Source: a virus. From it: a DNA stretch of 18,683 bases. The position numbers were made by a program. The stretch lies in UHGV virus genome UHGV-0367998; one strand, 5' to 3'. How positions within the stretch are numbered: the stretch's first letter is position 1; every line of letters begins with the position of its first letter. Positions 15,001-18,683 of the stretch are shown piece after piece.

Positions 15001-18000
15001 TGTAGATAAAATACTCTATCCTGAAGATATTCGCAAGGGGCCGTATTACTCCCGTACCAGCAGTCTGACACCGGAAGAGACAATTGCATCGCGTTTTGTG
15101 CGCCAGATGCAGGATAAATTCCAGGTGCTGAAAGCTGTTCAGGAGAATATCCGTAAAACTGGCGGAAAAATAGACGACAGTAACAACGCTTATATGGCGG
15201 AAGAACTCTTCCACGGGAAGGCGGAAAACGACCTGAACGTGATGAAGGAGCGCTACGTTCAGCCACTGGCTAAATTACTGGCGGACTACAAAATTGCGCA
15301 GGCCGATCTGGATGAGTACCTCTACGCCCGTCACGCGCCGGAACGTAACGCGCATATCGCGAAAATCAACCCGAAAATGCCGGACGGCGGTTCGGGGATG
15401 ACCAACGCGGAAGCGGCGGAAATCATGCAGCGTGTGCGTAACAGTGGCAAACAGGCACAGTATGACCGTCTGGCAGGGATTGTTGACGATATGCTGGCCC
15501 GTCGCCGTGAGCTTATCCGTGAGGCCGGACTGGAAGAGAGCGGTGTGGTGGATGCCTGGCAGAACGCCTACCGTTACTACGTTCCCCTGAAAGGTCAGGA
15601 TGTTGACGGTGTGGTGTCACTGCCCCGTACAGGTAAGGGCTTCACCATCGGCGGACGTGAAAGCAGGCAGGCCATGGGGCGTGCATCCCGCGCACAGTCT
15701 CCTTCCACTCAGGCGATACAGGATTTGAGCGAATCGCTGATCCGCAATCGCAAAAACGAAGTGGGTAACGCCTTCCTGAAACTGGTGCAGGATAATCCCG
15801 ATAAGGATTACTGGCAGGTATTCACTGATGACAAACCGGACACCATGCGGGCGATTGCAGAGCGTGTTGATCCGGAAACCGGCGAAACCCGTCGCGAAGT
15901 TGTTGAACGTCCGGTGCCTATGGCAATGATGGCGGATCGCTACTTCACCACCAAAAAGGACGGCAAAACTTACTACATCAAACTCCATGACCCGCGCCTG
16001 ATGCGTGCGATGAAGAACATGGGGCCGGAAACCAGTAACGCCGTAATCCGTACGCTGGGGAAAGTTAACCGTTTCCTGGCAACGGTGAACACGTCGTATA
16101 ACCCGGAATTTCTGGTCAGTAACTTCATCCGTGACGTGCAGACGGCGGTGATGAACCTGAAGGCTGAGCAGGGAAGGAGCGACGGTAAACTGAAAGGGCT
16201 GGATAACTTATCCGCCCTGGCTGTGGTGAAAGACAGCCGGTCTGCCATGTCTGCCGTATACGCCAGTCTGCGTGGTAAAACCCTCACGGGCAACGGTGCG
16301 CAGTGGCAGAAGGTGTGGAAAGAGTTTGTTGAGGATGGAGGTAAAACCGGCTGGTTTAACATGGGTGACCTTGAAGGCCAGCAGAAGGAAATGGATCGCC
16401 TTGTATCGCTGGCGAAGGGAGGATGGAAAGGCCAGAGTATCGGTGCATGGCATTCGTTCCTGAACCTGGTCGAGGATGCCAACGGCGCGGTTGAAAACGC
16501 TCTGCGTCTTTCTGCCTATAAACACGCCCGTGATGCCGGTTTGTCACGCCAGCAGGCGGCATCTCTTGCCAAAAACATGACGGTGAACTTTAACCGTCGT
16601 GGTGAGCAGGGAGCGCTGATGAACTCGCTGTATATGTTTGCCAACGCCAGCATTCAGGGGACCGCAAACCTGGTGAGAACGCTCGGACATCTTAATGGCG
16701 ACGGGCCGTTACCGGAGCGCCTTCGCTGGAAGAATCTCAATGTACCGCAGAAAATCGCGCTTGCAGCTGTGGGAGCGGGTTATCTGCTTGGCTCGCTTAA
16801 CCGCAGTGTTGCGGGGGAGGATGATGACGGGGTTAACTGGTATGACAAGGTGCCGTCTCATGTGAAAGAGCGTAACCTCGTCATTATGAAATCGGTGTTC
16901 GGGGGCAAGGCCGGAGAGTACTGGAGTATTCCTCTGCCTTACGGGTACAACGTTTTCTTCCTGCTCGGGCATACTGCTGAAGGTGTGGCAGCGGGCGACC
17001 TGACTGCTTCACGTGCTGCCGGTAATGTTGTCGGTGGTATCCTGGGGGCATTCAGTCCTGTGGGCAGTGAAACGTCGGAAACACTGTCCGGGGCATTGCT
17101 GAAAAATGCAGCGCCGACCATTCTGCGTCCGTTTGCGAACCTTGCCATGAATGAAAACTTCATGGGGGCGCAGATTTACCAGGAGAACATGCCATTTGGC
17201 ACACCGAAACCGGACAGCCAACTGGGCAGACGTTCAACGCCTGAGGCGTACAAGGCGTTTGCATCCTGGCTGAATGCGTTCTCAGGTGGCAGCCAGTATC
17301 GTCCCGGCGCGGTGGATATCACACCGGAATCGCTGAAATTCTGGATTGACTATATCTCCGGAGGGACAGGGCGCTTCATTTCCAAAACCACAGATGCGGC
17401 GGTGAAATCGCTGAACGGTATTGATATACCGGAGCAGCAGGTGCCCTTCCTGGGGAAAATTTCGGGTGAGGTGATGCCGTATGCAGACCAGCAGAAGATG
17501 TACGACCGGATGACAGAGGTTGCGCAGTATCACGCAGAGCTGAAGAGTCTGACCGGTGCAGAAAGAACGGCGTTCATTGACGAGAACAACGGAAAATTGT
17601 TGATGAACGGGCTTATGCAGGATACCCGGAAGAGACTGAAGGATTTGCGCAAACAGCGCGATGCCATTTATGCCGACAGTTCTCTCAGTCTGGCGCAGCA
17701 GGCGGCGATGGTGAAATCGGTAGAGCGGGATATGAAGGTTGCCGTGGATCGCTTTAACCGCGAGTACAACAAAAAAGTGGGAGTGGATTAACAGAAATGG
17801 CCCCGTACGGAAGTGCGGGGCTGATTAAGAAATAAACACACATTAACCTGTAATAACCGGAGCTATTAACATATAGTCAGAAAGAGTATTTCATGTGAGA
17901 CAGAGAGCCGATTTATGTTTAATGAAGAAAAAGTTGCGTAAATGGCAGCGTATTTGCTGAAAAAACATGGCGGATCTATGCGTTTCATTAAGCTGATGTA

Positions 18001-18683
18001 TCTCTCTGACCGCAAAGCAATGGAGTTGTATGGTTTTCCCATTAGTGGTGATCATTATTTCTCTATGAACAAAGGACCCGTTTTATCGCAGACATATTCT
18101 TTGGTTAAGGATGGAAGTGAAAACGAGTACAGTCCGTGGGAATCATGGATATCTGATGTAGCGGATCATAAGGTTGAAATGTGGCGTACATTTTCTTCTG
18201 TTGATGAGCTGGGGGAGTTATCGCCCGCAGAAATAGAGTCAATGGACATAATTTTTGGTCAATATGGAGGTTGGGATGCGTTCAGGCTTTGTGATGAAAC
18301 TCACAGAATTTGCGGTGAGTGGCGCGATCCGCATGGTTCATCAATTCCAATCAGCCTTAAGAATATATTTATTGCTCTTGGAAAGTTGCCAGAAGCAGCA
18401 ACAGTAATGGCGAATAGCATTAATGCGCAAAATAATCTTGATATATTATTAGGTGATCTGAGGTAGTCGGGATGATGTTCAGCCCTTATTTGTATTTACC
18501 GGGGAGGGAAGATGTTTAATTCCGATTCCCCGGCTCCACAGGCGAGCCTGTACATAGATTTGTGTAATTGCCTGATTTTGATATGTTCAATCCAGCATCA
18601 AATGAAGGTTAATTTATGGACGAAAAACAGTTACAGGCTCTGGCTAACGAACTGGCCAAAAACCTCAAAACCCCTGAAGACCT

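What the first reader, a model, noticed from the sequence alone, without database searches (positions are those of the whole stretch)
17915..18615. DUF4065 (Panacea/SocA-like) gene downstream of the giant gene, with an in-frame stop at its 5' end and an IS element at its 3' side
DUF4065/Panacea domains are known as promiscuous antitoxin domains paired with diverse toxins, and SocA-type proteins act as protease adaptors. Here the gene is a candidate immunity partner for a toxic domain of the giant protein, or the antitoxin of a pair whose toxin was removed by the IS256-family insertion; only a 15-codon ORF (18472-18519) remains before the IS. Upstream, MFNEEKVA-TAA-ATG-AAYLLKK reads like a once-continuous N-terminus interrupted by a nonsense codon at 17939-17941, with possible reinitiation at the adjacent ATG.
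Basis: partly seen in the sequence, partly recalled or inferred. Interest (0 to 1): 0.6.

Follow-up and report, generated by a model that had tools for sequence, protein, structure and literature searches.

The report
Decayed orphan antitoxin gene in prophage
This is the eroded antitoxin half of a known two-gene toxin-antitoxin module (Panacea antitoxin plus a MazF-like toxin) at the end of a Shiga-toxin-type E. coli prophage; the toxin gene was deleted earlier and the antitoxin has a stop at a conserved codon, so it is an ordinary gene relic, not a new system.

Summary
ORF 17942-18466 (174 aa) is a Panacea/DUF4065 protein (Pfam E=2.5e-19). It is preceded in frame by ATG 17915, eight codons and TAA 17939-41, and followed by the left end of IS1414 from 18544.

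The TAA replaces a near-invariant Gln (CAA). Related prophages keep CAA, and homologues from many taxa start MFxEEKVAQMAAYLL.

In every non-Sepvirinae locus examined (18 loci), this PanA subfamily is followed directly by a 133-134 aa gene. That gene has a predicted MazF/Kid fold. This matches the arrangement of the validated Pseudomonas moraviensis PanAT pair (toxin cluster T6, Kurata 2022).

In the window only the first six codons of that toxin gene survive, inside the 15-codon ORF 18472-18519. The same stub is present in IS-free relatives, where convergent ibrB follows. So the toxin was lost before the IS arrived, and the IS did not remove it.

The antitoxin also lacks three invariant residues (KLM) and carries non-consensus substitutions. 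Sister prophages (933W, 75/02 and others) show other deletion states of the same pair.

A link to the giant protein is not supported, because that gene is intact where PanA is deleted.

Verdict: decaying relic of a known TA type. A residual orphan-antitoxin function is possible but unproven.

The parts
17915..17941 (+). Original 5' end of panA: ATG, seven further codons (MFNEEKVA), then the nonsense codon TAA at 17939-17941, which replaces the conserved Gln9 codon CAA
   Evidence: Searches give the sequence. The codon is CAA in 933W, 75/02, cM8a, OkiPb01683, L008 and L009. The N-terminus is conserved in the family.
17942..18466 (+). Remaining 174-codon panA ORF (Panacea domain plus a C-terminal helical extension). 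It starts at Met10 of the ancestral protein, directly after the TAA (TAAATG).
   Evidence: Pfam PF13274 E=2.5e-19. RefSeq annotates it as a Panacea domain-containing protein, WP_032144006.1. There is no Shine-Dalgarno match before 17942 (dG -1.0).
17990..17998 (+). Single AAGCTGATG (KLM) unit. The family and the intact E. coli allele have two units (KLMKLL or KLMKLM), so three invariant residues of helix alpha2 are missing here.
   Evidence: Alignments. The K and L columns are 57 of 57 conserved. Helix alpha2 spans residues 24-42 in the AF2 model.
18472..18519 (+). Stub of the partner (MazF-fold toxin) gene. The first six codons (18472-18489, MMFSPY), together with its Shine-Dalgarno GAGG inside the panA 3' end, are homologous to the partner start. 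The rest is junction sequence.
   Evidence: Compared with the L008 partner (MSFTPYRRG...) and 933W L0135 (MMFTPYRRG...). The SD dG is -6.9, as in L008. The stub is identical in IS-free relatives.
18499..18533 (.). Imperfect hairpin in the spacer between the relic and convergent ibrB. Its 3' side and the bases just after it are a repeated IS1414 target.
   Evidence: Fold energy -18.2 kcal/mol, not better than shuffles (z -1.1). Three independent IS insertions fall within about 15 nt.
18544..18683 (+). Left end of IS1414 (IS256 family). The transposase ATG is at 18617. The element is cut off by the end of the window.
   Evidence: Identical to annotated IS1414 in E. coli OkiPb01683. This junction is absent from all 5,426 complete E. 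coli genomes.
17799..17822 (+). Strong stem-loop just after the giant gene's stop codon. It separates the giant gene from the panA relic.
   Evidence: -20.5 kcal/mol, z = -5.4, none of 200 shuffles folds as well. No T-run follows.
9413..17791 (+). Giant polyvalent virion-type gene (LPD5, LPD1, MuF_C, LPD38). It is a neighbour only and not a functional partner of panA.
   Evidence: Pfam hits. The gene is retained at 94-95% identity in phages where panA is deleted.

Best explanation
The locus is the eroded remnant of a two-gene type II toxin-antitoxin module. Its type is PanA (Panacea antitoxin) plus a MazF/PemK-fold PanT, cluster T6 in Kurata et al. 2022. The module once sat as an accessory cassette between the giant virion gene and the convergent early-left genes of 933W-like (Sepvirinae) prophages.

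Inferred order of events:
1. The toxin gene was deleted, leaving six codons.
2. The antitoxin, now without a toxin to neutralise, began to decay. It acquired CAA to TAA at conserved Gln9, lost one KLM unit in an invariant helix by slippage, and gained non-consensus substitutions.
3. IS1414 later inserted into the downstream spacer of this particular strain.

Shown:
- domain identity;
- the ancestral CAA;
- the conserved N-terminus;
- the constant downstream partner and its MazF-like fold;
- homology of the stub to the partner start;
- presence of the stub in IS-free relatives;
- several independent decay states in sister prophages.

Inferred:
- the order of events;
- that the ancestral pair worked as in P. 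moraviensis (a translation-inhibiting RNase toxin neutralised by direct PanA binding);
- that the present 174-codon ORF is functionless or nearly so.
For: - Pfam Panacea hit.
- TAA in the window against CAA in relatives.
- The N-terminus MFxEEKVAQMAAYLL is nearly invariant.
- A 133-134 aa partner lies directly downstream of PanA in all 18 non-Sepvirinae loci L008-L025. All 9 phage records that hold the partner also hold PanA.
- Kurata 2022 validated the P. moraviensis PanA, whose N-terminus is MIFSEQKVAQ, with a T6 MazF-like PanT in antitoxin-first order with a 1-nt overlap. Phage Sirocco has the same N-terminus and the same overlap with our partner family.
- The stub matches the partner start.
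- IS-free relatives carry the identical stub followed by ibrB.
- An intact 186-aa E. coli allele, with Q9 and KLMKLM, exists.
- At 6 of the 8 substitutions that separate the window allele from that intact allele, the intact allele carries the family-majority residue.
- The two TAA haplotypes differ by 4 nonsynonymous and 0 synonymous changes.
- Further lesions occur within the TAA lineage: IS1, IS3, internal deletions and frameshifts.
- Other deletion states are seen in 933W, 75/02 and L032.
- There is no SD before Met10 and only a weak one before 17915.
Against: - The 174-codon ORF is still open in most copies, and RefSeq annotates it as a gene.
- TAAATG is a favourable arrangement for termination-reinitiation, so an N-terminally shortened protein could be made.
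- All copies are at least 99% identical, so the data cannot separate neutral decay from selection. A split of 4 nonsynonymous to 0 synonymous changes is also compatible with chance.
- The genomic context of the intact allele could not be retrieved. It is therefore not shown that an intact pair ever sat at exactly this Sepvirinae position. Remnants of both genes in 933W argue that it did.
- Homology of our partner family to the P. moraviensis T6 toxin rests on shared fold, gene order and the PanA N-terminus. The two toxin sequences were not aligned.
Confidence: 0.7

Rival explanations
1. Functional orphan antitoxin. The eight-codon leader is translated, and ribosomes terminate at TAA and restart at the abutting ATG. 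The resulting 174-aa PanA is kept by the prophage to neutralise MazF-fold PanT toxins encoded elsewhere, for example by P2-like prophages of the same host. This would act as anti-addiction or anti-defence.
For: - The ORF is open in 18 complete genomes, one phage record, most of the six IMG/VR loci and most of the 14 metagenome loci.
- The TAAATG juxtaposition is present.
- The Panacea domain itself (profile positions 2-112) is intact.
- The same PanAT type occurs in E. coli P2-like prophages.
- Kurata 2022 showed that PanA specificity can be shifted by a few substitutions (abstract).
Against: - The restart loses residues 1-9, which are nearly invariant and form the start of helix alpha1.
- An invariant K-L-M turn of alpha2 is missing.
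- Non-consensus substitutions are present.
- Many secondary disruptions occur in the same lineage.
- Translation signals are weak.
- Most sister phages have discarded the gene entirely.
Confidence: 0.2
2. Immunity or antidote for a toxic domain of the upstream giant polyvalent protein.
For: Adjacency and shared orientation only.
Against: - The giant gene is retained at 94-95% identity in 933W, 75/02 and L032, where panA is deleted. 933W is a deposited complete phage genome.
- In other elements PanA of this subfamily always pairs with the small MazF-fold gene and no giant gene is nearby.
- A strong hairpin separates the two genes.
- No toxin domain was found in the giant protein by Pfam.
Confidence: 0.03
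3. The IS256-family element removed the toxin gene when it inserted.
For: The IS lies 24 nt after the stub ORF.
Against: IS-free relatives have the identical stub and spacer up to 18543, followed by ibrB. The IS is a simple later insertion into the spacer. What lies beyond the IS in this strain cannot be seen.
Confidence: 0.02
4. Programmed read-through or recoding of the TAA yields full-length PanA.
For: None beyond the in-frame arrangement.
Against: - No recoding signal was noticed on inspection of the sequence around the stop codon.
- The TAA allele is a single C-to-T change from CAA and is linked to other degenerative changes.
- TAA followed by A is an efficient stop context in E. coli (established knowledge).
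Confidence: 0.02

Closest known systems
PanAT toxin-antitoxin pair of Pseudomonas moraviensis (PanA WP_083354365.1 with PanT WP_083201923.1, toxin cluster T6; Kurata et al. 2022, PMC8832971)
   Same: - Stand-alone Panacea antitoxin of about 185 aa, with the same conserved N-terminus (MIFSEQKVAQ there, MFNEEKVAQ here).
- Antitoxin-first order, with a small overlapping downstream gene predicted to be MazF/PemK-like.
- Relatives of the window gene keep exactly this arrangement.
   Different: In the window the toxin gene is reduced to six codons and the antitoxin has a nonsense codon and a 3-residue deletion. No functional module remains. The toxin families were not aligned directly.
SocAB of Caulobacter crescentus (SocA, the founding DUF4065 protein)
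   Same: It shares the Panacea/DUF4065 domain (Pfam PF13274).
   Different: SocA is a ClpXP adaptor that promotes degradation of SocB, a toxin that binds the sliding clamp (established knowledge). The family partner here has a MazF fold, and PanA antitoxins are reported to neutralise by direct binding.
MazEF, Kis-Kid and PemIK type II TA systems
   Different: - There is no sequence-level match to the Pfam PemK model or to PDB MazF sequences.
- The partner has extra C-terminal helices and its own conserved motifs (HLHIICNDP, GxHPFIxHxSY).
- The antitoxin is a Panacea protein, not a MazE or Kis protein.
Orphan or degraded TA loci and morons at prophage ends (for example hokW/sokW in 933W)
   Same: Accessory TA cassettes sit at the same right-end region of Sepvirinae prophages. 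933W has hok/sok about 0.5 kb from its PanAT remnants.
   Different: hok/sok is an intact type I system. The PanAT cassette is degraded in every Sepvirinae DNA copy examined.

Membership tests
Panacea / DUF4065 domain family (PF13274) | Significant match to the family HMM above the gathering score | tested here: met
   E=2.5e-19 and 70.7 bits against a cutoff of 25.7, covering profile positions 2-112 of 113.
PanAT type II TA module (Kurata 2022 criteria) | A conserved partner gene within 100 nt of panA | tested here: not met
   In the window only a 6-codon stub of the partner remains (18472-18489). The next real gene in IS-free relatives is convergent ibrB. The feature is met in all 18 non-Sepvirinae relatives.
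PanAT type II TA module (Kurata 2022 criteria) | [quoted passage not shown] | tested here: met
   This applies to the family, not the window. The pair is found in E. coli, Salmonella, Mixta, Yersinia, Enterobacter, Klebsiella, Pseudomonas, Vibrio, Helicobacter-associated phage and Nitrospinota loci.
PanAT type II TA module (Kurata 2022 criteria) | The toxin inhibits growth and the cognate PanA rescues it, with complex formation | not testable with these tools
   Reported only for the P. moraviensis T6 pair in the literature. The window has no toxin gene to test.
Full-length PanA of this subfamily | Intact conserved N-terminus MFxEEKVAQ and the KLMKLL helix | tested here: not met
   TAA at codon 9 and one KLM unit missing.
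MazF/PemK/Kid toxin superfamily (the lost partner) | MazF-type SH3-like barrel fold | tested here: met
MazF/PemK/Kid toxin superfamily (the lost partner) | Sequence match to the PemK_toxin HMM, and RNase activity | tested here: not met
   No Pfam or PADLOC hit at E<=1 or E<=0.1 respectively. No PDB sequence hit. Activity is not testable here.
SocAB system | SocB-type toxin partner and a protease-adaptor mechanism | tested here: not met
   The family partner has a MazF fold. The adaptor mechanism is not testable.
IS1414 (IS256 family) | Terminal sequence and transposase start identical to annotated IS1414 | tested here: met
   Window 18544-18683 is identical to the annotated IS1414 in NZ_AP042515.1. 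Only the left 140 nt are visible.
Toxin-immunity pair with the giant polyvalent protein | Co-retention of the immunity gene wherever the toxin-bearing gene is kept | tested here: not met
   The giant gene is kept at 94-95% identity in 933W, 75/02 and L032, where panA is deleted.

The most novel reading that the evidence does not exclude
The truncated PanA may still be produced by termination-reinitiation at TAAATG. The prophage would retain it as an orphan antitoxin that disarms MazF-fold PanT toxins of competing elements, such as the same PanAT type found at P2-like prophage accessory sites. That would make it a phage-borne anti-TA or anti-defence factor derived from a captured TA module.
Probability: 0.12. 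Interest if true: 0.55.

Novelty: new member of a known kind. Interest (0 to 1): 0.25.

Why it matters
The finding mainly serves as an annotation correction and a small case study.

First, the RefSeq "Panacea domain-containing protein" of these prophages is an N-terminally truncated relic of a PanAT pair. Several hypothetical proteins of classic Stx phages are fragments of the same two genes. These include 933W L0135 and the 31-66 aa ORFs after the giant gene, along with the PHROG families built on them.

Second, the locus gives a series of independent decay states that is consistent with the expected order of TA loss, with the toxin lost before the antitoxin. That order is inferred here, not demonstrated.

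Third, it rules out a tempting link between the antitoxin and the giant polyvalent protein.

Fourth, it highlights a large MazF-fold toxin family (about 2,000 representative clusters) that has no Pfam or PADLOC model. That gap is useful for people who curate TA and defence databases.

Tried and rejected
- NCBIfam gave no hit for the PanA ORF, intact or repaired.
- PADLOC gave no hit for PanA or for the partner.
- Pfam gave no real hit for the partner, and a partner profile against PDB sequences gave nothing.
- Foldseek of the PanA model against the PDB gave no match with E<1, so no solved structure could be used to judge the effect of the N-terminal loss.
- A sigma-70 promoter scan of 17700-18683 found nothing, and the only terminator-like call is a weak 5-bp stem over the TAA.
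- I tried to retrieve the DNA context of the intact 186-aa allele (P0334).
- Scans with the window protein in genome contigs found nothing.
- Scans of viral and metagenome contigs found no intact CAA allele among the gene copies that reach codon 9. The window-type copies there carry TAA.
- A search with the 933W L0135 remnant, aimed at finding an intact Sepvirinae partner, returned only remnants.
- A megablast census with a 79-nt query detects only exact TAA alleles, because CAA alleles fall below the word size. It therefore counts TAA copies only.
- A literature search for 933W, L0135 or LPD38 together with Panacea found nothing relevant.
- The downstream hairpin 18499-18533 does not fold better than shuffles. 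I therefore do not claim it as a terminator.
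Full report
**What is in the sequence**

- The window is the late region of a 933W-like (Sepvirinae) E. coli prophage. Its last 984 bases match 18 of 5,426 complete E. coli genomes and phage PhiR5_2 at 99.4-100% up to position 18543. They match hundreds of Stx phages only up to about 17996-18026.
- The giant gene 9413-17791 (2792 aa) carries LPD5, LPD1, MuF_C and LPD38 domains.
- After a strong stem-loop (17799-17822, z = -5.4) comes ATG 17915, then MFNEEKVA, TAA 17939-41 and ATG 17942.
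- That ATG opens a 174-codon ORF ending at 18466. The ORF is a clear Panacea/DUF4065 protein (PF13274, E=2.5e-19).
- A 15-codon ORF (18472-18519) follows.
- From 18544 the sequence is the left end of IS1414, with the transposase ATG at 18617.

**The stop codon**

- In 933W, Shigella phage 75/02, and E. coli cM8a and OkiPb01683, the codon at 17939-41 is CAA.
- Two closer full-length homologues were called from the equivalent Met by gene finders (P0004 from an E. coli P2-like prophage, P0010 from a Salmonella lambdoid prophage). Both in fact have MFNEEKIAQ or MFCEEKVAQ with CAA upstream.
- Across 25 and then 57 family members from Yersinia, Photorhabdus, Xenorhabdus, Klebsiella, Mixta, Cobetia, Nitrospinota and metagenomes, the protein is 184-186 aa. 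It begins MFxEEKVAQMAAYLL, and M1, F2, K6, A8, Q9 and M10 are nearly invariant.
- Kurata et al. had to add exactly this segment (MIFSEQKVAQ) to the mis-annotated P. moraviensis PanA.
- The TAA is therefore a C-to-T nonsense mutation at a conserved Gln.
- In an AlphaFold model of a full-length homologue (pLDDT 93), helix alpha1 spans residues 4-17. A restart at Met10 would remove its first turn and a half.
- There is no Shine-Dalgarno match before 17942 and only a background-level one before 17915. Any product would depend on termination-reinitiation at TAAATG.

**A second lesion**

- The window has one AAGCTGATG (KLM) unit where the family has KLMKLL. The K and L columns are 57 of 57 conserved.
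- The unit number varies by slippage: one in the window and 75/02, two in OkiPb01683, three in cM8a.
- An intact E. coli allele exists in the protein collection (P0334, 186 aa, with Q9 and KLMKLM).
- At 6 of the 8 substitutions that separate the window allele from this intact allele, the intact allele carries the family-majority residue. The window instead has residues such as W at an R/K position and G at an H position.
- The two TAA haplotypes differ by four nonsynonymous and no synonymous changes, with identical flanks.

**The true partner**

- In every non-Sepvirinae locus fetched (18 loci, L008-L025), a 133-134 aa ORF starts within a few bases of the PanA stop.
- Those loci include:
  - E. 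coli and Pseudomonas P2-like phages;
  - lambdoid prophages of Salmonella, Yersinia, E. coli and Klebsiella;
  - a Vibrio tectivirus-like element;
  - Mixta, Enterobacter and Nitrospinota chromosomal islands.
- All nine phage records that contain the partner also contain PanA.
- The partner has no Pfam or PADLOC hit, but it belongs to a large family. That family has 2,169 representative clusters at E<=1e-3.
- This matches the validated P. moraviensis PanAT pair. That pair has toxin cluster T6, is described as "EndoA/PemK/MazF-family RNases", is ordered antitoxin first with a 1-nt overlap, and inhibits translation.
- Pseudomonas phage Sirocco links the two. Its PanA starts (V)IFSEQKVAQMAAYFL, and its partner, which overlaps PanA by one base, belongs to our family.

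**What happened at this locus**

- The window's 15-codon ORF starts MMFSPY. The partner starts MSFTPYRRGT in L008 and MMFTPYRRGT in 933W L0135, and the SD (GAGG inside the panA 3' end) is retained. The stub is therefore the 5' end of the toxin gene.
- The same stub and spacer occur in the IS-free relatives. These are EC2, PhiR5_2, several IMG/VR loci and about ten metagenome contigs. In them the spacer is followed after 88 nt by convergent ibrB/ibrA.
- The toxin deletion therefore predates the IS, which is a simple strain-specific insertion into the spacer. No complete genome has this junction.
- Sister prophages show other decay states:

| Lineage | State |
|---|---|
| 933W and most Stx phages | Internal, out-of-frame deletion of panA (about 17997-18392) plus an internally deleted partner, which is L0135 |
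| 75/02, POCJ13, cM8a, OkiPb01683 | Deletion running from 18026 through the partner |
| L032 | MFNE fused to the partner's C-terminal third |
| TAA lineage itself | IS1 and IS3 insertions, a 26-codon deletion, truncations and frameshifts |

- Every DNA copy of the window-type gene that reaches codon 9 carries the TAA.

**Interpretation**

- The best explanation (confidence about 0.7) is a relic. A PanAT (T6-type) cassette was carried as an accessory module at the right end of Sepvirinae prophages. It lost its toxin, and the released antitoxin is decaying.
- The main rival (about 0.2) is that a shortened PanA is still made and serves as an orphan antitoxin against related toxins. The copies are too similar to each other to decide this by sequence alone.
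- The giant-protein immunity idea is contradicted. The giant gene persists at 94-95% identity where panA is gone, and PanA's constant partner elsewhere is the small MazF-fold gene.
- IS-mediated removal of the toxin is refuted by the IS-free relatives.

**Novelty and limits**

- The domain, the TA type and the fold of the toxin are all known, and the gene is already annotated in RefSeq. What is new is modest:
  - recognition that this ORF and several Stx-phage "hypothetical proteins" are fragments of one PanAT pair;
  - the decay series;
  - the observation that the partner family lacks a curated model.
- Limits:
  - the context of the intact allele could not be fetched;
  - homology to the P. 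moraviensis toxin is inferred, not aligned;
  - no expression or toxicity data exist.

Noticed in passing
window 18530-18544; L048 and L030 at the homologous spacer: Three independent IS1414-type insertions fall within about 15 nt of the same spacer. The window has IRL after 18543. L048 has IRL 13 nt upstream in the same orientation. L030 has the other IS end 5 nt upstream. This looks like a local insertion hot spot next to an imperfect hairpin.
   Followed up: partly
L003 (phage 933W) 4216-4563: 933W L0135 (62 aa) is an internally deleted remnant of the MazF-fold partner. The 31-codon ORF before it is a deleted panA. PHROG families phrog_1925, phrog_3658 and phrog_28947 appear to be built from such pseudogene fragments.
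   Followed up: yes
window 17990-17998; L005 and L007 homologous positions: The 9-nt unit AAGCTGATG (KLM) varies from 1 to 3 tandem copies among prophages. The 933W deletion starts inside it. It behaves as a slippage-prone site inside an invariant helix.
   Followed up: partly
L008 6543-6944, L009 4473-4877, L016 4561-4962, L023 1486-1884 and others: The partner family is large, with 2,169 representative clusters. It has a confident MazF-like model plus three extra helices and its own invariant residues (H20, L21, C58, Y76, G113). It has no Pfam or PADLOC model.
   Followed up: partly
L008 5974-6944; L023 929-1884: In P2-like phages of E. coli and Pseudomonas, the PanA plus MazF-fold pair sits just upstream of the portal gene. 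In L008 it lies between the replication gene (gpA) and the portal gene. From general knowledge this is an accessory-gene position that often carries defence genes.
   Followed up: no
L008 6001 versus 5974; L009 3943 versus 3916; Kurata 2022 Table 1 note: Gene callers repeatedly start this PanA subfamily at Met10 although the conserved start is nine codons upstream. Database lengths of 174-177 aa are therefore often annotation artefacts, not truncations.
   Followed up: yes
L019-L021 (Nitrospinota contigs), about 4564-4905 in L019: In these contigs an IS21-family element cuts the partner at about residue 96 while PanA stays intact. This is another independent case of the toxin being lost first.
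   Followed up: no
window 17799-17822: A very stable stem-loop lies directly after the giant gene's stop codon (-20.5 kcal/mol, z -5.4). It has no T-run, so it may be a transcript-stabilising or attenuating structure.
   Followed up: no
window 5032-5766 and 2758-4026: Among the late genes there is an Ail/Lom-family outer-membrane protein gene (E=2e-33) and a tail-tip fibre domain protein. Most other large ORFs tested have no Pfam hit.
   Followed up: no
model mc876afc63b61 (PanA homologue P0007): A confident PanA model (pLDDT 93) finds no solved structure with Foldseek at E<1. This suggests that no close experimental structure of this Panacea subfamily is in the PDB copy.
   Followed up: no
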